Source of the DNA: a virus
DNA: 38,224 nt
IMG/VR virus record: IMGVR_UViG_3300042902_000101
Coordinates: 1 to 38,224 of that record
Strand: one strand, 5' to 3'
Shown here in pieces: positions 1-23,484 of this stretch (positions are counted from its first letter, which is position 1; each line of letters opens with the position of its first letter). The notes under the pieces are model-generated. The model saw only the letters and a list, made by a program, of their open reading frames with translations, was not told the DNA's origin and searched no databases. The position numbers and the translations under genes are program-made.

Positions 1-120
1 GCAGCAGCGGACAAAGCAGCAGCGGACAAAGCAGCAGCGGACAAAGCAGCAGCGGACAAAGCAGCAGCGGACAAAGCAGCAGCGGACAAAGCAGCAGCGG
101 ACAAAGCAGCAGCGGACAAA
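1..120 (+). repeat. Perfect 15-nt tandem repeat GCAGCAGCGGACAAA x8 (same array as 38098-38217)
   Basis: Direct reading: eight identical units with no spacers, in frame inside a CDS. Confidence 0.95.
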
Positions 121-198
121 GCAGCAGAAGCGGACCTTATGGGGCCAGAAGTGCCAGCTAAAAAAGCAGAAGCTAAAAAAGCAGAAAATAAAAAATAA
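1..198 (+). CDS. 3' portion of the junction-spanning (AAADK)n repeat protein gene (5' portion at 37717..38224; nt 1-127 duplicate 38098-38224)
   Basis: Frame 1 is open from nt 1: 8 x GCAGCAGCGGACAAA (AAADK), then AEADLMGPEVPAKKAEAKKAENKK, TAA at 196-198. Same frame and same repeat as the open-ended ORF that starts at ATG 37717. Confidence 0.8.
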   Translation, partial: AAADKAAADKAAADKAAADKAAADKAAADKAAADKAAADKAAEADLMGPEVPAKKAEAKKAENKK

Positions 199-213
199 TA
201 TTTTCATATATAG

Positions 214-247
214 AAAAAACAACGTATTTTTACATACGTTGTTTTTT
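214..247 (+). terminator. Rho-independent terminator after the (AAADK)n gene
   Basis: AAAAAACAACGTAT (214-227) pairs perfectly with ATACGTTGTTTTTT (234-247). 6-nt loop and a T-run, 16 nt after the TAA stop. Confidence 0.85.
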
Positions 248-2195: not shown

Positions 2196-2964
2196 TTTTA
2201 AAATAAAAAACGCGACTCTTTTTACGATCGAAAAAGGTATAGAGTCTACCGATTACCCTAGGAATTTCTACGCTCAAAAAGTGGACGGTAATTCTATACA
2301 AATTAAAAGTTTCGAAAATGGTAAATCTTTTATCGTAGACGTTTGGAAACTTCCGAACTTTACCGTAGAAGGCGTAGCCTATACCGACGTCGCACTTTGC
2401 GTAAGTACTATAAATAATATAGTATTCGCTTCGGTGGCTGGACCTACTGGACCGCAAGGGCCTATAGGAAATACTGGACCTACTGGGCCTACTGGACCTA
2501 CTGGACCTACTGGACCTACTGGACCTACTGGACCCCAAGGGCCGGCGGCAAGTACTGACGCTTTTAAAATCGAAAGGTTTACCGCTTTCTTTTCCGCACA
2601 AACTAATTTAACCGGGGCCACCCTGGTAGCGATTCCTTTTTTAACTTATACAATACAAAGAGCCGGTAAAATGAAGGCTAGACTTGTTTGTAATAGGGTG
2701 CAAACGTCTTCCGTGGCCGTAAGATTCGAAATACGTAAAAATAACGGGGTTAACCCAATCCCACTAATGACGCAAGGCGATGTATTGACTTTTGCAAACG
2801 AACAACATTCTTTTTGTTTAGAAACGGGGGACTACCAACAAGACGTAGTACCTGGCGACGTTATTACCGTTTTCGCTAATGGTTCTAACGCGGGAAACGG
2901 GACGCATACAATTAGAAACAAGACTTTTACCGTAGAAGTACTAACAAACACCGCAATACTATAA
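2188..2964 (+). CDS. Collagen-like repeat protein (fibre or decoration candidate)
   Basis: ATG 2188 overlaps the upstream TGA (ATGACTGA). Twelve uninterrupted G-X-Y triplets ([36 protein letters not shown]), followed by a beta-rich C-terminal domain. Confidence 0.8.
2440..2547 (+). repeat. Collagen G-X-Y coding repeat; near-perfect 9-nt units GGACCTACT x6 at 2476-2529
   Basis: Direct reading of the 9-nt periodicity. Confidence 0.9.
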
Positions 2965-4525: not shown

Positions 4526-5041
4526 ATGGCTTTTAACTATTTAAAATCGAATGTACCTAAAATAATAAAAGAAGCCTATAAATTAATGGGCGTTTCTGAA
4601 ATAGTAGGTTCGAAACATAACCCCGAGATTTTGGCCTGGGCCGATAAATTAAGCCTTAAAAACGTATATACTTCGGACGAGATACCGTGGTGCGGCCTTT
4701 TCGTTGCTTATGTTTGTTTAATGGCAAAAAAAGAAGTAGTTAAAGACCCGTTATGGGCTAGGAACTGGAATAAATTTGGAACTAAAGAAGTTTGCGCTAA
4801 ACTAGGCGATATTCTGGTCTTTTCCCGAGGTTCTGGGGGCCATGTAGGCTTCTACGTAGGCGAAGACCCAAAAGCGTACTTTGTACTAGGGGGAAACCAA
4901 GGCAATACGGTTTCTATTGTAAAGATTTCTAAAAGCCGTTGTATTGGAATACGTAGGCCAGAATGGAAAATAGCCGAACCTAGAAGCGTTAGGCAAATAT
5001 TTTTAGACGTAAAAGGTAACTTATCAACTAACGAGGCGTAA
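4526..5041 (+). CDS. Endolysin, TIGR02594-family (CHAP/NlpC-P60-like) peptidoglycan peptidase
   Basis: Motifs GSKHNPEILAWA, IPWCGLFVAY (catalytic Cys), GGHVGFYVG (His) and GGNQGNTVSI. Confidence 0.8.
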   Translation: MAFNYLKSNVPKIIKEAYKLMGVSEIVGSKHNPEILAWADKLSLKNVYTSDEIPWCGLFVAYVCLMAKKEVVKDPLWARNWNKFGTKEVCAKLGDILVFSRGSGGHVGFYVGEDPKAYFVLGGNQGNTVSIVKISKSRCIGIRRPEWKIAEPRSVRQIFLDVKGNLSTNEA

Positions 5042-5043
5042 AC

Positions 5044-5196
5044 ATGAAAAAAATAATAACTATTGTATCTTTTCAAATTGGCGTAAATATTATAGGACTT
5101 CCAATCTTCTGGGACCACGATATTTCTAAAGCTTTCACTAGTAAATCTAATTATATACATAAAAGCAATGATAACTTTAAACGTAATTTTAAATAA
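5044..5196 (+). CDS. Small single-TM protein (lysis accessory candidate); below the ORF-track size cutoff
   Basis: ATG 5044 lies 2 nt after the lysin stop. 50 aa: MKKIITIVSFQIGVNIIGLPIFWDHDISKAFTSKSNYIHKSNDNFKRNFK. Hydrophobic N-terminus and basic C-terminus. Fills an otherwise empty gap. Confidence 0.4.
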   Translation: MKKIITIVSFQIGVNIIGLPIFWDHDISKAFTSKSNYIHKSNDNFKRNFK

Positions 5197-5788
5197 CCTT
5201 AAGACGATAGGTATAGCTATACTTATTATTTTAGTAGTTTGGTTTTATAAGGACTACCAGCACCAAAAAATAGAGAATATAAGGCAAACGGAAAACAATA
5301 GGCAACTTCGTATTTCGGATAGTGTTAGGTTCACTTCGCAAAATTTGAATACTGAAGAAATAAAAGAGTATTTAGATTACGAAAATAAGGACCTAAAAGC
5401 CAAGCTAGAAAAAGATAGGGTAAAACTTAATAGAATAGAATCTATAGTTTCAACTAATTACAAGTATTCCGACAATTCCGACAAAGAAACGGATCTTATA
5501 AATATACTGAAAGCAATAAAGAACAACGTACCCGGAACCCAAGAAGTAATAGATACTTCTAATTGCATGACTATAAAAGGTAAGGTAAGCTTCGACGGCG
5601 TTAAATTAAAATTAAATATAACCGATAGAGAATTTAAAAATAAATCGGACGGCGTGGCCTACTGGGAACGGAAGCAATGGACGTTTTTAGGTATTAAATC
5701 CAGGCTTTTAGGTAAAAAGCAATTTACCGCCAAGACTTACGACCAATGCGGCGAAAGCCAGATTTTAAAAATAGAAAAAAAGAAATAA
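5168..5788 (+). CDS. N-terminally membrane-anchored coiled-coil protein (spanin-like candidate)
   Basis: TM segment LKTIGIAILIILVVWFY, then a charged helical region. Last gene of the lysis cluster, followed by a terminator. Confidence 0.6.
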   Translation: MITLNVILNNLKTIGIAILIILVVWFYKDYQHQKIENIRQTENNRQLRISDSVRFTSQNLNTEEIKEYLDYENKDLKAKLEKDRVKLNRIESIVSTNYKYSDNSDKETDLINILKAIKNNVPGTQEVIDTSNCMTIKGKVSFDGVKLKLNITDREFKNKSDGVAYWERKQWTFLGIKSRLLGKKQFTAKTYDQCGESQILKIEKKK

Positions 5789-5789
5789 T

Positions 5790-5816
5790 AAAAAGCCCTT
5801 CAAGTAAGGGCTTTTT
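5790..5816 (+). terminator. Rho-independent terminator closing the late/lysis operon
   Basis: AAAAAGCCCTT (5790-5800) pairs with AAGGGCTTTTT (5806-5816). 5-nt loop and a T-run, 1 nt after the stop. Confidence 0.9.
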
Positions 5817-5820
5817 CTAT

Positions 5821-6110
5821 TTAGGTAAACAAAATAAACTAAAATAAACAATAGTTGTTTACGCCCCTATCCCGTACCGGTTAGGTCCTGGAAGACTTTA
5901 TAAACAAATAAACAATAATAATATAAAACTTTTAAATTAATATAAATCACATAGATATAGTAATATAATAACTACTATATACGTTTCGGTTAAAATGTTT
6001 GTTTTTATTGTTTCTTTGTTTATCCTGGCGAAACTTGTACTTAACTTACTGATTTGCAACGAATTGAATAAGAAACAATAAAATACAAACTTTTGTTTCT
6101 TGTTTCTATT
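5821..6110. promoter_or_regulatory. Non-coding iteron element A: forward (G)TAAACAA(T) copies, AT-rich core, then reverse TTGTTT(A/C) copies. Paralogue of 22607-22975.
   Basis: Forward copies start at 5825, 5845, 5901, 5909 and 6072. Reverse copies start at 5855, 6007, 6016, 6093 and 6100. Palindrome TAAACAAtagTTGTTTAC at 5845-5862. No ORF. Confidence 0.75.
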
Positions 6111-6136
6111 AAAAAATATTTTTAAAAATAATTAAG

Positions 6137-6180
6137 AAAAAGTTTTTATATATCAAAATTAGTATTACTTTTACGGTATC
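6137..6180 (+). promoter_or_regulatory. Conserved promoter P1 (AAAAAGTTT...TATATCAAAA..AGTATTACtTTTACGGTATC)
   Basis: -7-like box TACTTTTA at 6166-6173. An upstream AGTTTT block lies about 20 nt away. The same architecture recurs at 8336, 15194, 16267 and 18674. Confidence 0.55.
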
Positions 6181-6250
6181 GAATAAGGGGATAGCCTAGT
6201 AAATAAAAATAATTTATAATTTTTATTAAAAAATAGTTTCTTATAAGATT

Positions 6251-6258
6251 TAATTTTG
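6251..6258 (+). promoter_or_regulatory. Bacteroidota-type -7 box TAATTTTG upstream of the first early gene
   Basis: Exact TAnnTTTG match, 27 nt before ATG 6286. Confidence 0.45.
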
Positions 6259-6285
6259 TAATTTAGCAAAAAATATTTTAAAACT

Positions 6286-6702
6286 ATGCAAACAATAAAT
6301 TTAAAAAAGATTATCGAGGCCCAAAATTTAGACGTTAAAGATGTGGCCGAGCATCTATTCCCTGGGAATAAATACCCAAAATTAGCACTAGACCGAGTAC
6401 TTACCCGAAAAGCGTTCCTAGATTCTAACCAGGTTAGTAGGCTTTCGATGTTAACGGGAATACCTATCGAATTATTGTATTCTGGTGGCGACTGGGCTAC
6501 GAAATGTTCGGATAGTACTATAACTTTTTCGTCTGGCGATTTTGTGGCCGAACTTAATACCGATAGTTGGGTTACTAAAATTTACCATAAAGATACTATT
6601 TTCCACGAAGGACTAGTACATGGTAGGAATATCGCCTTAAGTATTTACCTTGAAGAATTAACAAATTTAATAATTAAATATAATAAAAATGAAGCAAATT
6701 AA
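6286..6702 (+). CDS. Putative XRE-like helix-turn-helix DNA-binding protein
   Basis: The N-terminal 70 aa (LDVKDVAEHLF...LDSNQVSRLSMLTGIPIELLY) has the spacing of an XRE/Cro-type HTH. First gene after iteron element A. Confidence 0.45.
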   Translation: MQTINLKKIIEAQNLDVKDVAEHLFPGNKYPKLALDRVLTRKAFLDSNQVSRLSMLTGIPIELLYSGGDWATKCSDSTITFSSGDFVAELNTDSWVTKIYHKDTIFHEGLVHGRNIALSIYLEELTNLIIKYNKNEAN

Positions 6703-7132
6703 AATCAAATTGGAGGTTAACCCCTCAAACGCAAACCATGTCGAAGCCTTAAACGTATTTTTAAAAGCTTTAAACGGCGAAAAAGTAGAAGAAGCTACGG
6801 AAGTAAAAACTACTAAAGAGCCAGCCAAAAAAGCTAATAAAAAGACTACCAAGAAGGTAGAAGAAATCGAAGTAGTAGACGCCGAAGTAGTTACACCGGA
6901 AGAAGAAGCTATAAAAGAAACGCCGGAAGCACCAGCTAAAAAAGAAACAACTAAAGCCGCGGCCGAAGAAGTTACTATTAAGATAGAAGAAGTAAGGACC
7001 GCTTTATCTAAAAAGGTAGGGGACCACCGAGATTCTATAAAAAGCAAACTAACGGAACTAGGCGCTAACAATGTTACGTCTTTGGATTCGAAGCACTACC
7101 AAGTATTTTTAGACTTCCTTAACGAATTATAA
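6689..7132 (+). CDS. Hypothetical protein with an acidic/lysine-rich low-complexity linker
   Basis: 147 aa with a central KKANKKTTKKVEEIEVVDAEVVTPEEEAIKETPEAPAKKE. Both termini share a VFL(K/D)xLN motif. Confidence 0.6.
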   Translation: MKQIKIKLEVNPSNANHVEALNVFLKALNGEKVEEATEVKTTKEPAKKANKKTTKKVEEIEVVDAEVVTPEEEAIKETPEAPAKKETTKAAAEEVTIKIEEVRTALSKKVGDHRDSIKSKLTELGANNVTSLDSKHYQVFLDFLNEL

Positions 7133-8331
7133 TGGTAAAAGAAGTAATAGATCATAGCGTGCGAAAGCACGCTTTGCTATCGGCTTCCGGTGCTTCCAAG
7201 TGGATAAACTGCACCCCAAGCCCTAGACTAGAAGAAAACTTTACGGAAAAAGATTCGCCTTACGCTGAAGAAGGGACTTTGGCCCATGAGTTCGCCGAAA
7301 TTAACCTTAAATTACAATTGAAATTATTAACTAAAAAGGAGTACAAAGAAATTGCGGCCCCATTTTTAGAAAATAGATTCTATAGTAGTGAAATGGAAGA
7401 AGAAGTACAAAAACACGTAGACTACGTACGCCAGCAATTCGCCGAGGCAAAAAGAAAAACAAAAGACGCTAAACTTTTAATCGAAGAAAAAGTAGATTTA
7501 ACTTTCTTAATAGAAGACGGTTTCGGTACGTGCGACGATATAATAATCGCCGACGGGGTTCTGGAAGTTATCGACCTAAAATACGGTAAAGGCGTTAGAG
7601 TTTCGGCCGAAAATAATACGCAATTAAAACTATATGGGCTTGGGGCTTTGCGTGCCTTCGAATTAATGTACGATATACATACCGTAAAATTAACGATAGT
7701 ACAACCACGTTTAGACGCTATTTCTTCTTGGGATATATCGGCTTCGGAACTAAACACCTGGGGCGAAGAAGTGGTAAAACCTAAAGCGCTGGAAGCGTTC
7801 GCCGGCGAAGGCGAACAAACGCCAGGGAGTTGGTGCCGTTTTTGTAAAGCGAAAGCCCGATGCAAAGCCCTAGCTACTCAAAGTATGGAAGTCGCGAAAC
7901 ATGAATTTTCGGACCCTAAACTTTTAACCGACGCGGAAATTATAGACGTTTACGAAAAATCGTCCCAGATTATAGACTGGCTAAACGGAATATCTTCTTA
8001 TATTCTATCGGAAGCTTTAAAAGATAAGAAGTGGCCCGGCTATAAATTAGTAGAAGGTCGAAGCAATAGGGTAATAGTAAACCCGGAAAAGGTCGAAGAA
8101 GTGCTAGAAGCTAACCTTTTCGAAAAAGACCAATTTACGAACTCAAAACTAAAAGGCCTTGGGGATCTTGAAAAATTAATCGGTAAATCTAAATTTAATT
8201 TATTGATAGGGGAATTTATAGAAAAACCACCAGGGAAACCCACCCTAGTAGAAGAATCGGATAAAAGGCCGGCCTTCGGAATTAGCCAAGCGAAAGCAGA
8301 TTTTGGCGACGATGAAAATAATTTTAAATAA
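7132..8331 (+). CDS. Cas4/RecB-like PD-(D/E)XK nuclease (DUF2800-type)
   Basis: GTCDDIIIADGVLEVIDLKYGKG (D...D-x-K core). Cys at WINC plus CRFCKAKARC gives a four-Cys Fe-S pattern like Cas4. Sits next to a DUF2815 SSB and PolA. Confidence 0.75.
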   Translation: MVKEVIDHSVRKHALLSASGASKWINCTPSPRLEENFTEKDSPYAEEGTLAHEFAEINLKLQLKLLTKKEYKEIAAPFLENRFYSSEMEEEVQKHVDYVRQQFAEAKRKTKDAKLLIEEKVDLTFLIEDGFGTCDDIIIADGVLEVIDLKYGKGVRVSAENNTQLKLYGLGALRAFELMYDIHTVKLTIVQPRLDAISSWDISASELNTWGEEVVKPKALEAFAGEGEQTPGSWCRFCKAKARCKALATQSMEVAKHEFSDPKLLTDAEIIDVYEKSSQIIDWLNGISSYILSEALKDKKWPGYKLVEGRSNRVIVNPEKVEEVLEANLFEKDQFTNSKLKGLGDLEKLIGKSKFNLLIGEFIEKPPGKPTLVEESDKRPAFGISQAKADFGDDENNFK

Positions 8332-8335
8332 AAAT

Positions 8336-8380
8336 TAAAAAAAAGTTTCATTATATCAAAAAAAGTATTACATTTACAAA
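8336..8380 (+). promoter_or_regulatory. Conserved promoter P2 (AAAAAGTTTCATTATATCAAAAAAAGTATTACATTTACAAAATAA)
   Basis: -7-like box TACATTTA at 8369-8376. Near-identical in layout to P1. Lies upstream of the SSB gene. Confidence 0.55.
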
Positions 8381-8421
8381 ATAATAATAACAATAGTATT
8401 AATAATTAAAAATTCAAAATT

Positions 8422-8952
8422 ATGTCTACAAAAGTAATTACCGGTAAAGTTAGATTTTCTTACGCTCACGTTTTCGAACCAGCAGCAATGGCAGAAGGCC
8501 AAGACAAAAAGTATAGTGTTTCTTTGATTATCCCTAAAAGCGATAAGAAAACTATCGAAAAGATTAAAGCGGCTATTGCCCAGGCTTTAGAAGAAGGAAA
8601 AGCGAAATTTGGGGGTACTATCCCAAAAAACTACAAAAATCCACTTCGCGACGGGGACGAAGAACGCGAAGACGACGAAAATTATATAGGTTGCATGTTC
8701 GTAAATGCGAATAGTACAAATAAGCCGGGCCTAATTGATATTAACCTAGACCCAATACTAGACAAAGAAGACTTTTATTCTGGTTGTTACGGTAGGGCTT
8801 CGGTAAATTTCTACGCTTTTAGTGTTTCTGGAAATAAAGGTATCGCTTGCGGACTTAACAATTTACAAAAAATGGAAGACGGCGAACGCTTAAGCGGCGG
8901 CGGTTCTTCGGCGGAATCGGATTTCGGCGACGATAGCGAAGATTTAGGATAA
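8422..8952 (+). CDS. Single-stranded DNA-binding protein (DUF2815-type)
   Basis: The N-terminus KVITGKVRFSYAHVFEP is typical of DUF2815. Gly-rich linker and an acidic tail SDFGDDSEDLG. Confidence 0.75.
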   Translation: MSTKVITGKVRFSYAHVFEPAAMAEGQDKKYSVSLIIPKSDKKTIEKIKAAIAQALEEGKAKFGGTIPKNYKNPLRDGDEEREDDENYIGCMFVNANSTNKPGLIDINLDPILDKEDFYSGCYGRASVNFYAFSVSGNKGIACGLNNLQKMEDGERLSGGGSSAESDFGDDSEDLG

Positions 8953-8973
8953 AATTTTTAACCTAAATATTAA

Positions 8974-9002
8974 ATAGATTTTACTATATTTGTAAAATCT
9001 AT
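8974..9002 (+). promoter_or_regulatory. Promoter with a -7 box TATATTTG (8985-8992) held inside a 10-bp inverted repeat
   Basis: ATAGATTTTA (8974-8983) pairs with TAAAATCTAT (8993-9002). The box ends 12 nt before the tRNA-like element. Confidence 0.5.
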
Positions 9003-9004
9003 TA

Positions 9005-9078
9005 CGGCGGGGAAGTGCTTTGGTAAGCACACTAGCGTATAACGCTAGGGGTTTAAGGTTCGATTCCCGACCCGCCAC
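9005..9078 (+). tRNA. tRNA-like element with non-canonical features; anticodon-position triplet AUA
   Basis: D arm GTGC-TTTGGTAA-GCAC (9015-9030). Anticodon arm CTAGC-GTATAAC-GCTAG (9032-9048). GGTTCGATTCC T-loop signature (9057-9067). Acceptor GGCGGG/CCCGCC. However, the T stem pairs only 3/5 and the acceptor-to-D-arm or acceptor-to-T-arm spacing is off by 1 nt in either register. Confidence 0.45.
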
Positions 9079-9085
9079 AAAATCT

Positions 9086-9123
9086 TAAACCATTCTTTAT
9101 AGTAGCTTTTAGAGAATGGTTTA
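9086..9123 (+). terminator. Hairpin terminator after the tRNA-like element
   Basis: TAAACCATTCT (9086-9096) pairs with AGAATGGTTTA (9113-9123). 11-bp perfect stem, but no long T-run. Confidence 0.55.
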
Positions 9124-9164
9124 TATAAAAGATTGATTTTTAAAAACAAGCAAAAACGCAAAAC

Positions 9165-11129
9165 ATGGCTTTTAAAAAATTGCATATTGATATAGAAACA
9201 TATAGTTCTATAGATATAATGGCTTCGGGCGCATATAAATATATGGAGTCTGTAGATTTTGAAGTTTTAATGGTGGCATACGCCTTCGATAACGAACCCG
9301 TTAAAATTATAGACCTAGCCCAAAACGAAAAACTTCCTTCATACTTTCTGGAAGCTTTACAAGATCCCGATATTATTAAAAAGGCGCACAATGCGAACTT
9401 TGAACGCCAGGCTTTTAAAAAGCTAGGTTTCGATATACCTACAGAATTTTGGGAATGTACGGCAATAAAAGCGGCCTATTGTGGTTTGCCTTTATCTTTG
9501 GACCAGGTTTCTAAAGCTATGAATTTAGAAGAAAAAGGAAAATCTTCGACGGGTAAAGCCCTTATACGTTTCTTTTCATGCCCCCAAAAACCAACAAAGA
9601 AAAACGGTTTCAGTTTCCGAAATTTTCCCGAAAACGATTTGGAAAAATGGGCCGAATTTAAAGATTATTGCATGCAAGACGTCGAGGCGGAACGCGAAAT
9701 TTCTAGGCGTTTGGAAATATACACAATCCCAAACTTTGAAAAAGTAAACTATATACTAGACCAAAAAATAAACGATAAGGGGATAAAAATAGACGTTAAT
9801 ATGGCGACTAACGCCGTACAAATGGATTCTATTTTTACGAACAAGTTATTAACTAGGGCCAAAGAATTAACAAATTTAGAAAACCCAAAAAGTCCGGCCC
9901 AGCTAAAGGAATGGTTGTCTTCCAAAATGCAAAAAGAGATAAAAACACTTGCGAAGGAAAATTTAAACGATTTAATCTTAGAAGCTGAAGCCGGGCCTAT
10001 TTTGGAGGTTCTAAAATTACGTAAGAAGTTAGCGAAATCTTCTACTAAAAAATATACCGCTATGCTTAATTGCGTTTGCGAAGACGTAAGGGCGCACGGT
10101 CTTTTTCAGTTCTACGGCGCAAGTAGGACGGGGCGCTGGGCCGGTCGACTTATCCAATTGCAGAACTTGCCGCAAAACCATATTACTTTATTGCAAGACG
10201 CCAGGGATTTAATAACTTCTAACGATTACGATCTGGCTACTATGATGTACGACGATATTTCTTCGCTACTATCGCAATTAATTAGGACCGCTTTCGTAGC
10301 TAAAGAAAACCATACTTTCGCGGTTGCCGATTTTAGCGCAATCGAAGCCCGCGTAATTGCATGGCTAGCCGACGAAAAATGGCGCCTAGAAGTTTTTAAT
10401 TCCCACGGTAAAATATACGAGGCTTCGGCGTCTATGATGTTTAACGTACCTATCGAACAAATTACCAAAGGGTCCGATTTAAGGGACAAAGGGAAAATTG
10501 CGGAATTAGCCCTCGGGTACCAGGGCGCACTTGGGGCCTTAAAACAAATGGGCGGCGAAAAAATGGGCCTATCCGATATAGAAATGGCTACAATCGTAAA
10601 AAAATGGCGAAAAGCGAACCCCGCAATAGTTGGACTTTGGAAGGAAATAGAAGATTGCGCTAATAGGGCAATCAAAACCAAAAAAGTAGTAGTTTCAAAG
10701 CATAAAAACCTAGAATTTGATTCCGACGGGGACGTTTTAACTATAAAGCTACCTTCTGGTAGAAAATTATTCTACCAAAAACCTTCTTTTTCTATAAATA
10801 AGTGGGGTAAAGAGTCTATAAAATATAAGGGTATGAGTCAAACGACCCGCCAATGGGTTTACGTAGATACCTACGGCGGTAAATTGGTAGAAAATATAAT
10901 TCAAGCGATCGCTAGGGATTTACTGGCCTATTCCATGCAAAGAATAGACGTCGAAGGGTTCGATATAGTTATGCACGTACACGACGAAGCCGTTTGCGAA
11001 ATACCAAAAAGGCACGCAAACGCTAAACTTGAATTTATGTGCGAAATAATGGGCGAACCCGTACCCTGGGCGCCAGGTTTACCCCTTACGGCCGACGGCT
11101 ATATTACTGACTTTTACAAAAAAGATTAA
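9165..11129 (+). CDS. Family A DNA polymerase with 3'-5' proofreading exonuclease
   Basis: Exo motifs HIDIETYS, HNANFE and YCMQDVEAE. Pol motif A is DFSAIEARVIAW, motif B is RDKGKIAELALGYQG, motif C is VMHVHDEAV. Confidence 0.92.
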   Translation: MAFKKLHIDIETYSSIDIMASGAYKYMESVDFEVLMVAYAFDNEPVKIIDLAQNEKLPSYFLEALQDPDIIKKAHNANFERQAFKKLGFDIPTEFWECTAIKAAYCGLPLSLDQVSKAMNLEEKGKSSTGKALIRFFSCPQKPTKKNGFSFRNFPENDLEKWAEFKDYCMQDVEAEREISRRLEIYTIPNFEKVNYILDQKINDKGIKIDVNMATNAVQMDSIFTNKLLTRAKELTNLENPKSPAQLKEWLSSKMQKEIKTLAKENLNDLILEAEAGPILEVLKLRKKLAKSSTKKYTAMLNCVCEDVRAHGLFQFYGASRTGRWAGRLIQLQNLPQNHITLLQDARDLITSNDYDLATMMYDDISSLLSQLIRTAFVAKENHTFAVADFSAIEARVIAWLADEKWRLEVFNSHGKIYEASASMMFNVPIEQITKGSDLRDKGKIAELALGYQGALGALKQMGGEKMGLSDIEMATIVKKWRKANPAIVGLWKEIEDCANRAIKTKKVVVSKHKNLEFDSDGDVLTIKLPSGRKLFYQKPSFSINKWGKESIKYKGMSQTTRQWVYVDTYGGKLVENIIQAIARDLLAYSMQRIDVEGFDIVMHVHDEAVCEIPKRHANAKLEFMCEIMGEPVPWAPGLPLTADGYITDFYKKD

Positions 11130-11132
11130 TTT

Positions 11133-13523
11133 ATGAAATACGATGGACTATTAAATTTAGCTACTGGCATGAGTGCCAAGACTAAAGTATGGAAAAATAA
11201 GAAGATAACATGGTCGAACCTGGTAGCCAAGTTAAAAGAAGAAAACAAAACAAACGAAACATATAAAGAATTTATAGCGGCTTCGAAGGAAGACCAATCT
11301 AAAATAAAAGACGTAGGCGGCTACGTTGGTGGGTATCTACGCCAGGGGAAAAGAAGCCCTAAAAATGTAGTCCACCGCCAACTAATGACCCTGGATATAG
11401 ATTTCGCGCATACGGCTTTCTGGGACGATTTTTGCATGCAATTTTCTAACGCTGCGGTTATACATGCCACGCATAAACATTGCGAAGCCGACCCAAGGTA
11501 TAGACTTGTAATTCCAATGTCAAGGGAGGCGACGCCGGACGAATACGTAGCAGTTTCGCGACAAATAGCGGGAATTTTAGGGATAGATTTATTTGATAAT
11601 ACTACTTTCGAAACCAATAGATTAATGTTCTGGCCTTCGAATCCTAAAGACGTAGAATACTATTGTAGATTCCAAGACGGGCCGTGGGTCGATGTCGACG
11701 AAGTACTTAATACATATATCGACTGGAAAGATACAAGCCTTTGGCCTACGGCAGAACGCGACCTTAAAAACGTCTTCGATATTTCCAAGAAACAAGAAGA
11801 TCCAGAAGATAAAAAAGGAATCGTTGGGGCATTTTGTAGGACTTTCGGGATTTCGGACGCAATATCTACTTTTTTAAAAGAAGCTTACGTAGAAGCGACC
11901 GAAGGACGATATACTTATACTGGGGGATCTACGGCGGCGGGTTTGATTTTATACGACGATAAATTCGCATATTCACACCACGGGACCGACCCATGCGGGG
12001 GTAAATTGTGTAACGCGTTCGACCTGGTTCGAATCCATTTATTTAGCCATTTAGATTCCGAAGAAGGAAATTCTTCTACAAAATCGAAAAGTTTTGGGGC
12101 AATGGAAGACTTCGCTAGGAAAAACAAAGACGTTAAAAAAACAATCGCCGGCGAACATTTAGCGAGTTCTAAATATGATTTTATCGACCCGGTAGATTCC
12201 GAAGCCGAAGAAATAGAAGCAGCTTCCGAAGAAGATATTAATTGGCTGGTCGACCTAGAAACCGATACGCGAGGGAATTATTTATCTACGGCGATAAATA
12301 TAAATACAATACTAGCCAACGATTCCAGGCTTAAGGGGGTTTTTAAACAAAACGACTTCGACGGGAAAAGGTACGTTTTTACTAGCCTACCGTGGCGAAG
12401 GGTAACTAGGCCGGAACCGGTAAAAAATGTCGACTACTCGGGGGTTCGAAATTATATCGAATCTATTTACGGGATTTCTGGGACTTTAAAAATAGACGAT
12501 TCCCTGGCGCTAGAGTTCGAAAAACAATCTTTTCACCCTATAAAAGAATATTTATCTTCTTTAAAGTGGGACCAGGTAAAAAGGGTCGATTCCCTTCTAG
12601 TGGAATATTTCGGGGCCGACGATAATATTTATACGCACGAAGCTATTAGAAAAATGTTAGTCGCTGCGGTTGCTCGAATATTTAAACCCGGTTGCAAGTT
12701 CGACCTAGTACTTACTTTAATAGGGGATCAAGGAACTAAAAAAAGTAGTTTTATTAAAAAATTAGGTAAAGAATGGTTTTCCGATACTTTTATGACCGTA
12801 CACGGAAAAGAAGCGCTAGAACAAATTCAAGGGGCTTGGCTTATTGAAATGGCGGAACTATCCGGGTTACGAAAAGCCGAAGTAGAATCTATAAAACATT
12901 TTATTTCTAAACAAGAAGACGCTTTTCGACCAGCTTACGCCAGGACTTCCGAAACCTTCCAAAGACAATGCGTATTTTTTGGGACAACTAACAAAAAAGA
13001 CTTTTTAACGGACCCGTCCGGAAATAGAAGATTCATGCCTATAGACGTAAATAAAAACCAAGTAGTTAAAGACGTTTGGCAAGACCTGGACGCCGAAATA
13101 GACCAAATATGGGCCGAGGCGGTCCACTTATTTAAGAAGGGCGAAACCTTATTTTTAAGCGACGAAGCGGAAACGATAGCGAAAGCGGAACAAAGAAACC
13201 ATTGCGAAGTAGACGATCGAAAAGGACTTATCGAAGACTATCTTTACCAGCCTTTACCCGAAAACTGGCCTACTTTAGATATTCACGAAAGACGAATATT
13301 TTTGGAAAACCCAGAAGGAAAAGGAACGAACCAAAAAGACTACGTTTGTATGGCCGAAATATGGTGCGAATGTCTAAATAAGGATAAGGAAAATATGAGC
13401 CGATACAATACGCGCGAAATTAACGATATAATGAAGGGCCTAGAAGACTGGGAGTATAGCAAGTCTACGAAGAATTTCCCCCTATATGGAAAACAGAAAT
13501 ACTACGCTAGAAAACTATATTAA
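11133..13523 (+). CDS. Primase-helicase: VirE_N-like primase domain fused to a VirE (virulence-associated protein E) P-loop domain
   Basis: N-terminal LMTLDIDF...HATHKH...RYRLVIP. C-terminal Walker A LIGDQGTKKSSF and Walker B-like WLIEMAEL. Confidence 0.8.
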   Translation: MKYDGLLNLATGMSAKTKVWKNKKITWSNLVAKLKEENKTNETYKEFIAASKEDQSKIKDVGGYVGGYLRQGKRSPKNVVHRQLMTLDIDFAHTAFWDDFCMQFSNAAVIHATHKHCEADPRYRLVIPMSREATPDEYVAVSRQIAGILGIDLFDNTTFETNRLMFWPSNPKDVEYYCRFQDGPWVDVDEVLNTYIDWKDTSLWPTAERDLKNVFDISKKQEDPEDKKGIVGAFCRTFGISDAISTFLKEAYVEATEGRYTYTGGSTAAGLILYDDKFAYSHHGTDPCGGKLCNAFDLVRIHLFSHLDSEEGNSSTKSKSFGAMEDFARKNKDVKKTIAGEHLASSKYDFIDPVDSEAEEIEAASEEDINWLVDLETDTRGNYLSTAININTILANDSRLKGVFKQNDFDGKRYVFTSLPWRRVTRPEPVKNVDYSGVRNYIESIYGISGTLKIDDSLALEFEKQSFHPIKEYLSSLKWDQVKRVDSLLVEYFGADDNIYTHEAIRKMLVAAVARIFKPGCKFDLVLTLIGDQGTKKSSFIKKLGKEWFSDTFMTVHGKEALEQIQGAWLIEMAELSGLRKAEVESIKHFISKQEDAFRPAYARTSETFQRQCVFFGTTNKKDFLTDPSGNRRFMPIDVNKNQVVKDVWQDLDAEIDQIWAEAVHLFKKGETLFLSDEAETIAKAEQRNHCEVDDRKGLIEDYLYQPLPENWPTLDIHERRIFLENPEGKGTNQKDYVCMAEIWCECLNKDKENMSRYNTREINDIMKGLEDWEYSKSTKNFPLYGKQKYYARKLY

Positions 13524-13525
13524 AA

Positions 13526-13816
13526 ATGGTTATAGAAAGCGAAAAACTAATAGAAAAAAACCTTTGTAGAGAGGTTAAAAAAATAGGCGGCTGGTCGATA
13601 AAGCTACTTTCTACACATTTGACCGGCTTACCCGATAGGCTTTGCTTGTTGCCTGGTGGTCGCCTATTTTTTATAGAATTGAAAACAACAAAAAAGAAAC
13701 CGACAAAAATACAATTGTTAATACATAGAAAATTAACCCGGCTAGGTTTCGACGTCTACGTGGCCGATTCTACGGAAGTTATTCTTAATATACTAAAATG
13801 CTATGAACGAAAATAA
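13526..13816 (+). CDS. VRR-NUC domain nuclease
   Basis: GLPDRLCLLPGGRLFFIELKTTKKKPTKIQ (D...E-x-K...Q signature). 96 aa, a typical size. Confidence 0.85.
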   Translation: MVIESEKLIEKNLCREVKKIGGWSIKLLSTHLTGLPDRLCLLPGGRLFFIELKTTKKKPTKIQLLIHRKLTRLGFDVYVADSTEVILNILKCYERK

Positions 13817-15185
13817 TTTGCACCAATACCAAAAAAGCGCTATAAATCATATAATAGATAACGACCATTGCGGCTTATTTTTAGATATGGGCCTGGGCAA
13901 AACCGTTTCGACCCTTACCGCGGTAAATAAATTAATGTTTGAAGAATTAGATATAGAAAGTATTTTAATAGTCGCACCTAAAAGGGTGGCCGAAAATGTT
14001 TGGACGTCGGAACTGGAAAAGTGGGGCCATTTATCCCACCTTAATATAGTTAAAATAGTAGGTAACGAGAAAAAACGAAAAGAAGCGTTAAGGCAAAAAG
14101 CCGATATTCATATAATTAGCCGCGATAATATAGTTTGGCTTTGCGGCCAGTTCGGGGGTTCGATGCTTCCTTTTGATATGTTAATAATCGACGAAAGCAG
14201 TAGCTTTAAATCGCCAAAATCCAATAGATTTAAAGCCTTAAAACTAGTACAACCTTCTTTTAAAAGGGTCGTTCTACTAACCGGGACACCAGCCCCAAAC
14301 GGCTTAATAGATATTTGGTCCCAAATATATTTATTAGATAGAGGCGAAAGACTAGGTAAAACTATAACGGCGTACCGCGAAGATTATTTTAGACCAGGAA
14401 AAAGGAACGGGGCAATAGTCTACAATTATGATCTGCAGAACGACGGCGAAACGCGAATACATGAAAAAATAAGCGACGTTTGTATGAGTATGAAGGCGAA
14501 GGACTATCTTAATTTACCGGACCGAATAGACAACTATATAGAAATTAACTTTTCCGAAAGTCTACAAAAAAAATATAACGATTTCGAACGGGACCAGGTG
14601 CTAGAAATGTTTTCCGATAGTAGCGAAATTTCGGCGGTAAACGCTGCGGCCCTATCCAATAAACTTCTTCAATTTGCTAACGGTGCGGTCTACGACGACG
14701 AAAAAAACTACCATATAGTCCACGATTTAAAACTGGACGCCCTGGAAGAAATAATAGAAAACGCAAACGGCAAGCCCGTACTAATTGCATACACTTTTAG
14801 GCATGACCTGGAACGAATACTTACTAGATTTAAAAAGTACGGGGTCCAAAGCTTAAAAACGGACCAGGATATAAAGGACTGGAACGCCGGAAAAATTAAA
14901 GTTATGGTTATGCACCCGGCTTCTGGGGGCCACGGCTTAAACTTACAAGCGGGCGGCAATATAATAGTATGGTTTGGGCAAACTTGGTCTTTAGAATTAT
15001 ACATGCAATTTAACGCGCGATTAGATCGCCAAGGGCAAACGGACGCCGTTATTATTAACCACTTAATTTCTAAAACAACGGTAGACGAAGACGTTATTAA
15101 ATCGCTGGCAAATAAAAACTTAAAACAAGAAGGACTTATGGCCGCCGTAAAAGCCCGTTTAGATAAGTATAAAAAATACTTTTAA
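13803..15185 (+). CDS. SNF2-family (SF2) helicase/translocase
   Basis: DMGLGKT (motif I), LIIDESSSFK (motif II), LLTGTPAPNG (motif III), GGHGLNLQ and RLDRQGQ (motifs V/VI). Confidence 0.9.
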   Translation: MNENNLHQYQKSAINHIIDNDHCGLFLDMGLGKTVSTLTAVNKLMFEELDIESILIVAPKRVAENVWTSELEKWGHLSHLNIVKIVGNEKKRKEALRQKADIHIISRDNIVWLCGQFGGSMLPFDMLIIDESSSFKSPKSNRFKALKLVQPSFKRVVLLTGTPAPNGLIDIWSQIYLLDRGERLGKTITAYREDYFRPGKRNGAIVYNYDLQNDGETRIHEKISDVCMSMKAKDYLNLPDRIDNYIEINFSESLQKKYNDFERDQVLEMFSDSSEISAVNAAALSNKLLQFANGAVYDDEKNYHIVHDLKLDALEEIIENANGKPVLIAYTFRHDLERILTRFKKYGVQSLKTDQDIKDWNAGKIKVMVMHPASGGHGLNLQAGGNIIVWFGQTWSLELYMQFNARLDRQGQTDAVIINHLISKTTVDEDVIKSLANKNLKQEGLMAAVKARLDKYKKYF

Positions 15186-15193
15186 GAAATATT

Positions 15194-15235
15194 AAAAAAA
15201 GTTTTTATTTGGTTATTATTTTGTATATTTACAAA
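15194..15235 (+). promoter_or_regulatory. Conserved promoter P3 (AAAAAAAGTTTTTATTTGGTTATTATTTTGTATATTTACAAAATAA)
   Basis: -7-like box TATATTTA at 15224-15231. A TTTG lies about 20 nt upstream. Shares ATTTACAAAATAAT with P2. Confidence 0.5.
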
Positions 15236-15253
15236 ATAATAAATACTAAAAAC

Positions 15254-15673
15254 ATGAATAAGCAAAACCAAATAGACCAACAATATTTAAGAATGGCCCA
15301 AGTCTGGGCCGATTCTTCCTATTGCCAACGAAAAAAAGTCGGTTGTTTAATAGTTAAAAACCAAACTATTATATCGGACGGGTACAACGGGACGCCAAGG
15401 GGTTTCGATAATGTTTGCGAAAGTTCCGAAGACGGCGAAACTTTGTGGCATGTTTTGCACGCCGAGGCGAACGCCCTAACCAAAATAGCCAGGTCTAACC
15501 AAAGCAGCGAAGGGGCTACTTTATATACCACGCTTTCGCCTTGCAAAGATTGCAGTAAATTAATACTTCAGTCGGGAATAACTAGAGTAGTTTATTTAAA
15601 CGATCTATCGGATAGGTCCGGACTAGATTTCCTTTTTGAAGCGGGGATAGATACGATAAAAGGCCATGTTTAA
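15254..15673 (+). CDS. dCMP (deoxycytidylate) deaminase
   Basis: Zinc motifs HAEANAL and PCKDCSKLI. ATG 15254 is preferred over the TTG at 15209, which would lie inside promoter P3. Confidence 0.85.
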   Translation: MNKQNQIDQQYLRMAQVWADSSYCQRKKVGCLIVKNQTIISDGYNGTPRGFDNVCESSEDGETLWHVLHAEANALTKIARSNQSSEGATLYTTLSPCKDCSKLILQSGITRVVYLNDLSDRSGLDFLFEAGIDTIKGHV

Positions 15674-16055
15674 AATAATTCCAAATAAAAAGGACGGACT
15701 TTGTAGGGCGTATAGGTGCAAAAATAACCACCCTAAAAAAGACAAACTTTGCCCGAAACATAGAAAACGCATGCAAAAAGAGTCGGACCCCCTGGCCTAT
15801 ACTTTTAATCTTCTGAAATCGAACGCGAACCGACGAAATAAGGTTTTCGAATTATCTATCGAAGAATTTAAAATCTTTTGCGACGAATCGAACTACCTAG
15901 AATTAAAAGGCAAAAAAGGAAGTTCCGCTTCTATCGACCGCATAGACCCAGAAAAAGGGTATTCCCTGGATAACATACAAATAATGTCCTTATCTAATAA
16001 TTCTAAAAAGATGCACCAGGACAAAACCAACAAGGAAGAAAGCCTTCCTTTTTAG
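15666..16055 (+). CDS. HNH-type endonuclease (small, free-standing)
   Basis: N-terminal Cys/His cluster CRAYRCKNNHPKKDKLCPKH. C-terminal SIDRIDPEKGYSLDNIQIMSLSNNSKK, typical of short phage HNH proteins. Confidence 0.6.
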   Translation: MFKIIPNKKDGLCRAYRCKNNHPKKDKLCPKHRKRMQKESDPLAYTFNLLKSNANRRNKVFELSIEEFKIFCDESNYLELKGKKGSSASIDRIDPEKGYSLDNIQIMSLSNNSKKMHQDKTNKEESLPF

Positions 16056-16072
16056 TAACTAAAATTAACCAC

Positions 16073-16258
16073 ATGAAAACAACCATTTTAAAAATAGTAA
16101 TTATAATACTATTATTAATTGCCGTAATACTTTTTAATTTATGGGCCTTAAAAAATTCGTCCTATTTAGTAAAGACTATAGCCGTATTTATAAACATAAT
16201 TTTGTTTTTATCGACGCCTTTTAATTTGATTTTTAAAGACCGGAAACCTAGAAAATAA
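16073..16258 (+). CDS. Small two-TM membrane protein
   Basis: 61 aa with ILKIVIIILLLIAVILFNLW and IAVFINIILFLSTPFNLIF, and a basic C-terminus. Confidence 0.55.
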   Translation: MKTTILKIVIIILLLIAVILFNLWALKNSSYLVKTIAVFINIILFLSTPFNLIFKDRKPRK

Positions 16259-16266
16259 AGCCTTTT

Positions 16267-16339
16267 AAAAAATAATTTTAAAAAAAGTTAAAAAAAAGTT
16301 TTTTATTCCGGAAGAAGTTGTATCTTTACGGTATCAAAA
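16267..16339 (+). promoter_or_regulatory. Conserved promoter P4; 73-nt near-identical copy of 18674-18746
   Basis: Two mismatches to P5 over 73 nt. -7-like box TATCTTTA at 16321-16328, followed by CGGTATC as in P1. Confidence 0.6.
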
Positions 16340-22606: not shown

Positions 22607-22975
22607 ATAGTAAACAAAGGTAAACAATAATAAACAATCATTGTTTACGCAAGAAACCCAACGAGGGTAAGGGCTAACAAGGAAGTAAACAAAGTAAACA
22701 ATAATATTATAAAACTTTTTAATTATATAAATATATAGATTTTATATATTTAGGGGGTATATATAATATATACGGGCAAATTAAAGTTTTTGGGTTTTTA
22801 TTGTTTACTTTTACCCTTTTTAGCCCTATTTTGACTTTTAACTTATTGATTTCCAGGCTATTAGTGGGTAAACAATGCCTTTTTTCTTTGTTTACCAGGC
22901 CGTCGTAAATCTTTGAGCCTCAAAGGGTTAGCCGTAAACAATAATTGTTTCTTTTGTTTCTTTGTTGTTTCTTGG
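22607..22975. promoter_or_regulatory. Non-coding iteron element B, paralogue of 5821-6110
   Basis: Forward GTAAACAA copies start at 22610, 22620, 22685, 22694, 22868 and 22934, and TAAACAAT at 22631. Reverse TTGTTT(A/C) copies start at 22641, 22801, 22888, 22945 and 22954. Palindromes at 22631-22648 and 22936-22950. No credible ORF. Confidence 0.75.
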
Positions 22976-23031: not shown

Positions 23032-23484
23032 ATGGCTTATTCAGATTTGGAAAAGGACCAAATTTTCGACGATGTTATCGAAGAAATTATAGAAGGGCGT
23101 TCTTTACGAAGCATTTTAAAAGACAAAGGTATGCCTTCGGCGTCCAATTTCTTAAGGTGGCTTTCGTTGGACGAACTAAAACAGAAACAATATGCGCGCG
23201 CGTGCGAGGCTCGGGCCGATTATTTATTCGAACAAACTATCGAAATCGCAAATAATACGGAAGCGGGAACGGAAACGACGGTAGATCATAACGGTATAAA
23301 AATAGTTACTAAAGATATGCTAGGCCACCGAAGACTAAAAATCGACGCGATACATTGGCATATATCGAAAATGAATCCGAAGAAATATGGTAATAAAATC
23401 GACCTTACAACGGACGGCGACAAAATAGAAAACGCCGCGCCAGTTTGGGCCTTTATTAATGCGGAAAAAACAGAAGATAAATAA
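23032..23484 (+). CDS. terS: Terminase small subunit
   Basis: N-terminal HTH-like GRSLRSILKDKGMPSASNFLRWL, then KQYARACEARADYLFEQTIEIAN, a pattern common in phage small terminases. Sits directly upstream of TerL. Confidence 0.7.
   Translation: MAYSDLEKDQIFDDVIEEIIEGRSLRSILKDKGMPSASNFLRWLSLDELKQKQYARACEARADYLFEQTIEIANNTEAGTETTVDHNGIKIVTKDMLGHRRLKIDAIHWHISKMNPKKYGNKIDLTTDGDKIENAAPVWAFINAEKTEDK

What the first reader, a model, noticed from the sequence alone, without database searches (positions are those of the whole stretch)
5821..6110. Iteron element A: about 300 nt of non-coding DNA built from GTAAACAA copies in opposed orientation around an AT-rich core
Seen: the element lies between the late terminator (5790-5816) and the first early promoters and contains no ORF. 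The left half carries forward (G)TAAACAA(T) copies starting at 5825, 5845, 5901 and 5909, plus the palindrome TAAACAAtagTTGTTTAC (5845-5862). The centre (about 5917-5995) is almost pure A/T. The right half carries the reverse complement TTGTTT(A/C) starting at 6007, 6016, 6093 and 6100. A second copy of the whole architecture lies at 22607-22975. Established: arrays of short iterons flanking an AT-rich unwinding region are the hallmark of plasmid and phage replication origins, and of multi-operator regulatory switches. Inference: this is an origin and/or a master regulatory region bound by a phage protein. The HTH protein encoded immediately downstream (6286..6702) is the obvious candidate.
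Basis: partly seen in the sequence, partly recalled or inferred. Interest (0 to 1): 0.8.

Follow-up and report, generated by a model that had tools for sequence, protein, structure and literature searches.

The report
Duplicated iteron origin of a flavobacterial phage
This stretch is one of two copies of a probable phage replication origin: short repeats in opposed orientation around the easiest-to-melt DNA in the genome. The repeats are most likely read by the phage's own primase-helicase, not by the neighbouring helix-turn-helix protein.

Summary
TAAACAA-type 8-mers are strongly clustered at 5821-6110 (element A) and 22607-22975 (element B). They lie in opposed orientation around an 83-99 nt, 84% A+T spacer. 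These two spacers are the two least stable 80-bp duplex windows of the 38-kb genome.

The window is a complete circular genome of a Croceibacter phage P2559Y-like siphovirus. The same two-element layout occurs in P2559Y and in about 80 uncultured relatives, always alongside the same replication gene module.

The architecture matches the origins of staphylococcal pathogenicity islands (SaPIs), where a self-loading Rep helicase reads iterons through a C-terminal winged helix. The phage primase-helicase (11133-13523) is a close homologue of SaPI Rep1 and has the same predicted C-terminal fold.

Across relatives, iteron sequence co-varies with the wing residues of this domain (window S778, T779, N781). 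In 36 near-identical helicases, the only residues that separate GGAACAAT genomes from TAAACAAT genomes are these three. The HTH protein (6286-6702) is unchanged across that switch, and unrelated small-terminase families share one iteron.

Verdict: a probable replication origin, as a new two-copy variant of a known kind. No binding or replication experiment exists.

The parts
5790..5816 (+). Terminator hairpin closing the late/lysis operon, directly before element A
   Evidence: 11-bp stem AAAAAGCCCTT/AAGGGCTTTTT
5826..5862 (.). Left iteron array of A: three direct copies (5826, 5835 with one mismatch, 5845) and one inverted copy (5855). Together they form the palindrome 5845-5862.
   Evidence: the same array with its palindrome is seen in relatives
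5863..5900 (.). G+C-richer variable spacer between the outer array and the core
5901..5915 (+). Core left pair: two direct iterons, ATAAACAAATAAACAAT
5916..5998 (.). A+T-rich spacer (83 nt, 84% A+T), the proposed DNA unwinding element
   Evidence: second least stable 80-bp window of the genome
5999..6022 (-). Core right set: three inverted iterons (5999 and 6008 with one mismatch each, 6016 exact)
6041..6058 (.). Second conserved motif, TTAACTTAYTGATTTSCA; palindrome-like in relatives; binder unknown
6072..6106 (.). Right array of degenerate iterons (AGAAACAA): 6072 forward, 6093 and 6100 reverse
6111..6194 (+). First of five copies of an 84-nt promoter-like unit (early promoter candidate)
   Evidence: family D3
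6286..6702 (+). First early gene: XRE/cI-like HTH followed by a beta domain. It is conserved next to element A but does not co-vary with the iterons.
11133..13523 (+). Primase-helicase of the PriRep type, the proposed initiator. The C-terminal winged-helix domain is 13101-13520. The wing SKSTKNFPLYGKQKYY is 13458-13505, with S778, T779 and N781 at 13464-13475.
22607..22975 (.). Element B, the second and richer copy. Its parts are: array with palindrome 22611-22648; core pair 22686-22701; A+T spacer 22702-22800; inverted iteron 22801-22807; second motif 22838-22855; further sites 22869-22971.
23032..23484 (+). Small terminase subunit (Sf6-like), the first late gene downstream of B. A TAnnTTTG-like box lies at 22997-23004.

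Best explanation
Element A (5821-6110) and element B (22607-22975) are the replication origins of this phage. The 8-mer iterons, (G/A)TAAACAA(T), are binding sites for the C-terminal winged-helix domain of the phage's own primase-helicase (gene 11133-13523). This protein is a self-loading SF3 helicase of the SaPI Rep/PriRep type.

Proposed mechanism: helicase hexamers bound to iterons that face each other across the 83-99 nt A+T-rich spacer melt that spacer. They load onto single strands, prime with their N-terminal primase domain, and hand over to the phage family-A DNA polymerase.

B has about twice as many, and better, iterons than A in the window and in relatives, so B is probably the stronger site and A an auxiliary or second origin.

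Shown here: the anatomy; its conservation; homology of the helicase and its C-terminal domain to SaPI Rep1; and co-variation of iteron sequence with wing residues.
Inferred, not shown: actual binding, melting and initiation at these sites, and the ranking of B over A.
For: 1. Architecture. At least two iterons lie on each side of an A+T-rich centre and point in opposite directions. This is the layout PMC9371898 describes for SaPI origins.
2. Stability. The spacers of B and A are the first and second least stable 80-bp windows in the 38 kb.
3. Helicase homology. Residues 384-723 match SaPI1 Rep1 (PDB 7PDS) at E = 3e-69. The N-terminal 423 aa match a primase family.
4. C-terminal domain. The AF2 model of the last 140 aa (pLDDT 87) has two helices followed by a beta-hairpin wing. 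Its best fold match is the Rep1 chain of 7PDS (E = 2.5e-6, probability 1.0). In PMC9371898, PriRep5 lacking this domain no longer binds its origin.
5. Conservation. The same two elements occur in Croceibacter phage P2559Y, in L122, and in many of the 80 IMG/VR loci fetched with the helicase. They always accompany this replication module.
6. Co-variation.
   - Elizabethkingia phage TCUEAP1 keeps the architecture at both positions but uses TGTCTCAA, and its wing differs.
   - Among 36 helicases of 803 aa from loci about 93-95% identical in DNA, the only residues diagnostic of GGAACAAT against TAAACAAT genomes are 785 S>A, 786 T>S and 788 N>R.
   - The single GACACAAT genome differs at 786, 788 and 797, plus positions 18 and 781.
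   - Across about 30 lineages, Asn at this wing position goes with TAAAC iterons: the counts are 20/0 against 2/8, Fisher p = 8e-6.
7. Other genes. No other well-sampled gene between A and B has fixed differences of this kind.
8. Wholesale switching. All iteron copies in an element switch together while the sequence between them is kept.
Against: - No experiment. Binding, melting and initiation are inferred.
- The elements are not next to the helicase gene as in SaPIs. A ends 5.0 kb upstream of it and B begins 9.1 kb downstream.
- The co-variation rule has exceptions. L179 and L180 lack the Asn but keep TAAAC-like iterons, and L130 mixes TAAAC and GAAAC.
- L145 is a hybrid. Its element A carries GGAACAA iterons although its helicase and element B are of the TAAACAA type.
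- The lineages in the Fisher test are not strictly independent.
- The small terminase of GGAACAAT genomes shows two fixed substitutions, E61D and E88G, on a sample of 3 against 5.
- Cumulative GC skew rises monotonically and marks no origin.
- B has only one exact inverted iterons directly right of its spacer.
Confidence: 0.72

Rival explanations
1. The 8-mers are operators of a transcriptional switch bound by the HTH protein 6286-6702. This protein would control the early operon (downstream of A) and the late operon (downstream of B).
For: - The protein has an XRE/cI-like HTH in the AF2 model. Fold matches to C.Csp231I and the TP901-1 CI N-terminal domain have probability 1.0 but weak E-values of 0.06-0.3.
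- Its gene is the first after element A in the window, in P2559Y and in other relatives.
- Both elements lie directly upstream of the first early and first late genes, next to promoter-like boxes.
Against: - The homologue has zero residues diagnostic of the iteron type between TAAACAAT and GGAACAAT genomes, and its HTH region does not differ between them.
- Its helix-3 variant in the GACACAAT genome L172 is shared with the TAAACAAT genome L179.
- Bacteroides phage BF486P2 has a nearly identical recognition helix (KYPKLAFDRVL) but no TAAACAA cluster.
- Most sites are asymmetric direct repeats, not dimer-type palindromes.
Confidence: 0.1
2. The elements are packaging (pac) recognition sites bound by the small terminase subunit, whose gene starts just downstream of B.
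For: - B lies immediately upstream of the small terminase gene in every genome examined.
- The P2559Y record starts inside B'.
- The small terminase of GGAACAAT genomes carries two fixed substitutions.
Against: - The same TAAACAA iterons occur with unrelated small-terminase families: phrog_1482 (Sf6-like) in the window and phrog_606 in the IMG 3300045988 group, with no detectable similarity between them.
- TCUEAP1 also has a phrog_606 terminase but uses TGTCTCAA.
- Element A is 17 kb from the terminase gene.
- Contigs that start or end in the elements are explained by assembly breaks at a repeat. For example, the L166 contig runs from A to B.
- The two terminase substitutions are conservative or few, come from a small sample, and sit in a gene tightly linked to B.
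Confidence: 0.07
3. The elements encode structured non-coding RNAs, or act as DNA cruciforms or recombination hot spots at module borders, with no dedicated binding protein.
For: - Folding energies are lower than in shuffles: z = -2.3 for A, and -5.9 and -9.1 for the two strands of B.
- The hybrid L145 and the tandem duplication in L027 show recombination at these sites.
Against: - Low folding energy is seen on both strands, as expected from inverted DNA repeats.
- There is no Rfam match.
- What is conserved across genomes is the 8-mer and its arrangement, not a pairing scheme. Spacers between iterons vary freely.
- The wholesale iteron switches match changes in a DNA-binding wing.
Confidence: 0.04

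Closest known systems
SaPI replication origins with self-loading Rep/PriRep helicases (Staphylococcus aureus pathogenicity islands; PMC9371898, PDB 7PDS)
   Same: - The helicase is homologous (E = 3e-69).
- The primase is fused to the helicase, as in PriRep5.
- The C-terminal winged-helix domain has the same predicted fold.
- Short iterons lie on both sides of an A+T-rich centre, with at least two per side in opposed orientation.
   Different: - SaPI origins lie immediately downstream of rep and occur once per element. Here there are two copies, sometimes three, at the late-to-early and early-to-late gene borders, 5 and 9 kb from the helicase gene.
- Iterons are 8-9 bp rather than 5-6 bp.
- Each element has extra outer arrays ending in a palindrome, plus a second palindromic motif.
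- The carrier is a lytic-type siphovirus of Flavobacteriia, not a satellite.
Predicted SaPI5-like origin of Enterococcus phage Abitsa (Efquatrovirus; PMC13517437)
   Same: It is a tailed phage with a PriRep5-like self-loading helicase and a set of iterons around an A+T-rich region, identified by sequence inspection.
   Different: Abitsa has a single origin with seven 10-bp repeats near a genome end. No second copy and no protein-iteron co-variation are reported.
Satellite phage P4 ori plus crr, bound by the alpha primase-helicase (own knowledge; no supporting text found)
   Same: Two separated cis sites carry the same octamer iterons, which are read by the C-terminal domain of a multifunctional primase-helicase.
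   Different: In P4 both sites are needed and lie 4.5 kb apart. Here it is unknown whether both are needed, the sites are 17 and 21 kb apart on the circle, and each copy has its own A+T-rich spacer.
Bacillus phage SPP1 oriL and oriR (own knowledge)
   Same: Two dispersed origins in one phage genome share repeats bound by one phage initiator and lie next to A+T-rich DNA.
   Different: The SPP1 initiator G38P is a separate origin-binding protein that recruits a DnaB-type helicase through a loader.

Membership tests
SaPI-type Rep/PriRep origin system | SF3 helicase homologous to SaPI Rep | tested here: met
   Residues 384-723 match 7PDS Rep1 at E = 3e-69. Pfam VapE-like domain at 5.5e-84.
SaPI-type Rep/PriRep origin system | Primase adjacent to or fused with Rep | tested here: met
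   The N-terminal 1-423 aa match the DNA primase family phrog_9765 at 3e-125.
SaPI-type Rep/PriRep origin system | C-terminal winged-helix domain | tested here: met
   AF2 model with pLDDT 87: helices 84-91 and 101-113, then a beta hairpin 117-137. Best fold match is 7PDS (E = 2.5e-6). This is a predicted structure only.
SaPI-type Rep/PriRep origin system | Iterons on both sides of an A+T-rich centre, at least two per side, in opposed orientation | tested here: met
   A has 5901 and 5909 forward, an 83-nt spacer of 84% A+T, and 5999, 6008 and 6016 reverse. B has two forward but only one exact reverse copy next to the spacer.
SaPI-type Rep/PriRep origin system | Origin immediately downstream of the rep ORF | tested here: not met
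   The helicase gene is 11133-13523. A ends at 6110 and B starts at 22607.
SaPI-type Rep/PriRep origin system | Rep C-terminal domain binds the iterons specifically | not testable with these tools
   Indirect support only: iterons co-vary with wing residues.
SaPI-type Rep/PriRep origin system | Replication initiates at the element | not testable with these tools
   No coverage or replication data. GC skew is uninformative.
P4-type ori plus crr | Two separated cis sites with the same iterons | tested here: met
   A and B in the window. Both positions are also seen in P2559Y, L122, TCUEAP1 and many loci.
P4-type ori plus crr | Both sites required in cis for replication | not testable with these tools
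   The hybrid L145, with mismatched A iterons, hints that A may be dispensable.
Plasmid or lambda-type iteron origin with a dedicated initiator | Separate initiator gene (Rep_3/RepA, lambda O or DnaA-like) plus a recruited DnaB-type helicase | tested here: not met
   PHROGs scans of 30 proteins covering nearly all of the early region, and a Pfam scan of ten of them, found no such initiator and no DnaB-type helicase or loader. One small early ORF (16073-16258) was not scanned.
CI/Cro-type operator array | Operator sequence tracks the adjacent HTH repressor | tested here: not met
   The homologue of 6286-6702 has no iteron-type-diagnostic residue across the TAAACAAT to GGAACAAT switch.
pac site of a headful-packaging phage | Site lies in or next to the small terminase gene and is specific to that terminase | tested here: not met
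   B is adjacent but A is not. The same iteron occurs with unrelated terminase families. Two fixed terminase substitutions in GGAACAAT genomes leave a small doubt.

The most novel reading that the evidence does not exclude
Origin specificity may be a fast-evolving 'lock and key' in these phages.

Within one population of loci about 93-95% identical in DNA, every iteron in both origins has been rewritten (TAAACAAT to GGAACAAT, or to GACACAAT). At the same time two or three wing residues of the helicase changed.

This would mean diversifying selection for orthogonal replicons. Possible drivers are escape from satellites or defective genomes that steal the helicase, or avoiding competition between co-infecting relatives.

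A further possibility is that the two origin copies cooperate. They could pair or loop as in P4 ori-crr. Alternatively, helicase loading at B, just upstream of the late operon, could couple replication to late transcription.
Probability: 0.2. Interest if true: 0.75.

Novelty: new variant of a known kind. Interest (0 to 1): 0.5.

Why it matters
- Origins of most environmental phages are unknown. This result gives a sequence rule for locating them in a widespread group of Bacteroidota siphoviruses that carry the DUF2800 nuclease, Enc34-type SSB, family-A polymerase, PriRep helicase and SNF2 helicase module.
- It names the likely initiator.
- It points to three wing residues (S778, T779, N781) as a natural specificity code that can be tested by swapping them.
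- The cultured relative P2559Y and its host make the tests feasible.
- The two-copy layout and the wholesale iteron switches raise testable questions about origin cooperation and about selection for replicon orthogonality.
- Practical point: the repeated elements break metagenome assemblies of these phages.

Tried and rejected
- Megablast of 5000-8000 against GenBank phages found no match.
- Rfam found only the tRNA.
- A profile search of PDB sequences with the HTH protein family found nothing.
- The GTDB genome scan with the helicase returned a single locus, L122.
- Bacteroides phage BF486P2 has the replication module but no TAAACAA-type element. It has a different TGCCA/TGACA repeat region, which I did not pursue.
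- The sigma-70 promoter scan was at chance level (4 found against 4.7 expected) and is not suited to Bacteroidota.
- I suspected concerted evolution of the A and B spacers within a genome. Whole-spacer identity within genomes (0.52-0.75) barely exceeds the between-genome mean of 0.60 for this A+T-rich DNA, so I dropped the claim. Only the left ~45 nt are clearly shared in the window and in P2559Y.
- GC skew gives no origin signal.
- Searches for open-access text on P4 ori/crr found nothing usable.
- I considered attP or another recombination site. No integrase-like match appeared among the 30 proteins scanned, which cover the early region, the last late gene and the small terminase; most late genes were not scanned.
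- I considered a partition site. The same scans found no ParB, and only a weak (E about 1e-3 to 1e-5) P-loop ATPase-like match in the 81-aa ORF 21970-22215.
- Strict exact-repeat detection missed the window itself, so I replaced it with cluster-based detection.

Full report
**Setting.** The window is a complete, circularly closed phage genome. Bases 1-127 repeat exactly at 38098-38224, and all genes are on the + strand.

- A late/structural block runs from the small terminase gene (23032) round to 5788.
- An early/replication block runs from 6286 to 22606.
- The early block encodes a DUF2800/PD-(D/E)XK nuclease, an Enc34/gp2.5-type SSB, a family-A polymerase, a 796-aa primase-helicase, a VRR-NUC-like nuclease, an SNF2 helicase and a DnaQ-like exonuclease.
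- The closest cultured relative is Croceibacter phage P2559Y, with 68.5% amino-acid identity in the primase-helicase. The host is therefore very probably a marine member of the Flavobacteriaceae.
- Element A lies at the late-to-early border and element B at the early-to-late border.

Copies of (G/A)TAAACAA(T) lie forward at 5826, 5835 (one mismatch), 5845, 5901 and 5909. Reverse copies lie at 5855, 5999, 6008, 6016, 6093 and 6100, and a degenerate forward copy lies at 6072.

- The 7-mer occurs 33 times in the window against 16.2 +/- 3.8 in shuffles. Sixteen copies are in A and B.
- GTAAACAA occurs 14 times against 2.2 expected.
- A and B align at 73% identity, with the parts in the same order.
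- No ORF above 40 aa lies in 5789-6285. The hairpin at 5790-5816 is real.
- The spacers (5916-5998 and 22702-22800) are 84% A+T.
- The two least stable 80-bp duplex windows of the genome are 22692-22771 and 5899-5978.

**Conservation.** P2559Y has the same two elements with the same motif at the same two gene borders.

- A scan of IMG/VR for the palindrome TAAACAATNNTTGTTTAC returned 118 loci. About 45 of them carry dense clusters.
- Every such locus with recognisable flanks carries this replication module. The cluster sits either upstream of the homologue of 6286-6702 or upstream of the small terminase gene.

The shared anatomy, in order, is:

1. two or three direct iterons ending in a palindrome;
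2. a G+C-richer spacer of 35-45 nt;
3. two direct iterons;
4. an A+T-rich stretch of 80-122 nt;
5. two inverted iterons;
6. a second, palindrome-like motif;
7. further iterons;
8. the promoter region of the next operon.

Elizabethkingia phage TCUEAP1 (helicase 50% identical) keeps the core of this anatomy (two direct iterons, an A+T-rich spacer, two inverted iterons) at both borders. It uses a different 8-mer, TGTCTCAA. That points to a co-evolving protein-DNA pair.

**Which protein reads the iterons.** I fetched 80 further loci with a helicase alignment. Iteron variants among them are G(G)AAACAAT, GAGAAACAAT, GGAACAATG, GACACAATGG and CACACAAT, as well as TAAACGAT and GTAAACAG.

- The variants track the C-terminal wing of the primase-helicase, SKSTKNFPLYGKQKYY in the window. 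Asn at window position 781 goes with TAAAC iterons in 20 of 20 lineages. Other residues go with non-TAAAC iterons in 8 of 10 lineages (Fisher p = 8e-6). The lineages are not strictly independent.
- The sharpest test comes from a set of 36 helicases of 803 aa, from loci about 93-95% identical in DNA. The only residues that separate the three GGAACAAT genomes from 31 TAAACAAT genomes are 785 S>A, 786 T>S and 788 N>R.
- The single GACACAAT genome differs at 786 T>N, 788 N>K and 797 Y>C, plus positions 18 and 781. So two independent switches hit the same two wing residues.
- I scanned every ORF between A and B in the same set. No other well-sampled gene showed such fixed differences. The exceptions were one hypervariable ORF and a single position elsewhere. 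The homologue of 6286-6702 showed none.
- Within an element, all iteron copies switch together while the DNA between them stays the same.

**Why the helicase is a plausible reader.**

- Residues 384-723 match SaPI1 Rep1 (PDB 7PDS) at E = 3e-69.
- An AlphaFold model of the last 140 residues, built on 43 sequences (pLDDT 87), shows helices followed by a beta-hairpin wing that carries the co-varying residues.
- Its best structural match is the Rep1 chain of 7PDS (E = 2.5e-6).
- The paper describing that structure (PMC9371898) states that SaPI Reps are self-loading initiator helicases. Their C-terminal winged helix recognises iterons placed on both sides of an A+T-rich region, with at least two per side in opposed orientation. 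PriRep5 lacking the C-terminal domain no longer binds its origin.
- A 2026 paper predicts a similar single origin in Enterococcus phage Abitsa.

**Rivals.**

- *HTH protein 6286-6702.* It has an XRE/cI-like N-terminal domain but fails the co-variation test. Bacteroides phage BF486P2 has an almost identical recognition helix and no TAAACAA cluster. The protein could still bind the second palindromic motif; I could not test that.
- *Small terminase.* This is unlikely. The window's Sf6-like protein (phrog_1482) and the unrelated phrog_606 protein of the IMG 3300045988 group share the TAAACAA iteron. Element A is also far from the terminase gene. Two fixed terminase substitutions in GGAACAAT genomes leave a small doubt.
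- *RNA or cruciform.* These readings explain neither the conserved 8-mer nor its switches. Low folding energies are seen on both strands, as inverted DNA repeats predict.

**Differences from the known kind, and open points.**

- In SaPIs the origin lies directly after rep and occurs once. Here there are two dispersed copies. One genome has three, because A is tandemly duplicated.
- B carries about twice as many iterons as A in most genomes.
- The hybrid L145 carries mismatched GGAACAA iterons in A only. Together with the iteron counts, this suggests that B is the main origin and A is auxiliary. That ranking is an inference.
- Exceptions to the wing rule (L179, L180, L130) show that other residues also contribute to specificity.
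- Nothing here demonstrates binding, melting or initiation.

**Verdict.** Element A is one of two copies of a probable replication origin of the SaPI Rep type, in a new two-copy arrangement. The proposed binding protein is not.

Noticed in passing
window 1-127 and 38098-38224: The two ends of the window are exactly identical over 127 nt. This is an assembly overlap of a circular or circularly permuted genome of about 38,097 bp.
   Followed up: partly
window 1-217 and 38038-38224: 15-nt tandem repeats span the circular junction, inside a Lys/Ala/Glu-rich coding region.
   Followed up: no
window 2438-2572: 9-nt CTGGACCTA repeats encode collagen-like Gly-Pro-Thr triplets in ORF 2122-2964, probably a tail fibre.
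   Followed up: no
window 9005-9078: ARAGORN calls this tRNA gene tRNA-Tyr with the unusual anticodon ATA. Its Rfam score (31.5 bits) is only just above threshold.
   Followed up: no
window 6111-6194, 8314-8397, 15169-15252, 16266-16349, 18673-18756: Five copies of an 84-nt promoter-like unit (AAAAAGTTTTT ... TAnnTTTAC GGTATC) lie within the early region. They are probably early or middle promoters of the Bacteroidota type.
   Followed up: partly
window 6041-6058 and 22838-22855; L121 6878, 30318, 30493: A second conserved motif (TTAACTTAYTGATTTSCA; CTAAnnnATTGAnnnTCAATnnnTTAG-like in relatives) lies inside both elements. It also occurs in Bacteroides phage BF486P2, which lacks the iterons. 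Its binder is unknown; the HTH protein 6286-6702 is a candidate.
   Followed up: partly
L145 111-430 and 16915-17444: This is a hybrid genome. Element A carries GGAACAA iterons, while element B and the helicase wing are of the TAAACAA type. This suggests recombination at the elements and some tolerance of a mismatched A.
   Followed up: partly
L027 791-1140 and 1448-1808 (same contig as L037 and L179): Element A is present as a tandem duplication, giving three origin-like copies in one genome.
   Followed up: no
L166 (whole contig); L001 record start: Several metagenomic contigs begin or end inside the elements, and the P2559Y record starts in the centre of B'. The near-identical A and B repeats probably break assemblies, so these are not physical genome ends.
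   Followed up: partly
window iterons; C-terminal domain 13101-13520: GTAAACAA is also the eukaryotic forkhead/FOXO binding site (own knowledge). The helicase C-terminal model gave weak, non-significant fold hits to forkhead winged helices. I treat this as coincidence.
   Followed up: no
L121 29500-29900: Bacteroides phage BF486P2 has a 1.7-kb intergenic region between divergent operons that is packed with TGCCAnnnTGGCA / TGTCAATATGGCA palindromes. This may be a different origin or operator system.
   Followed up: no
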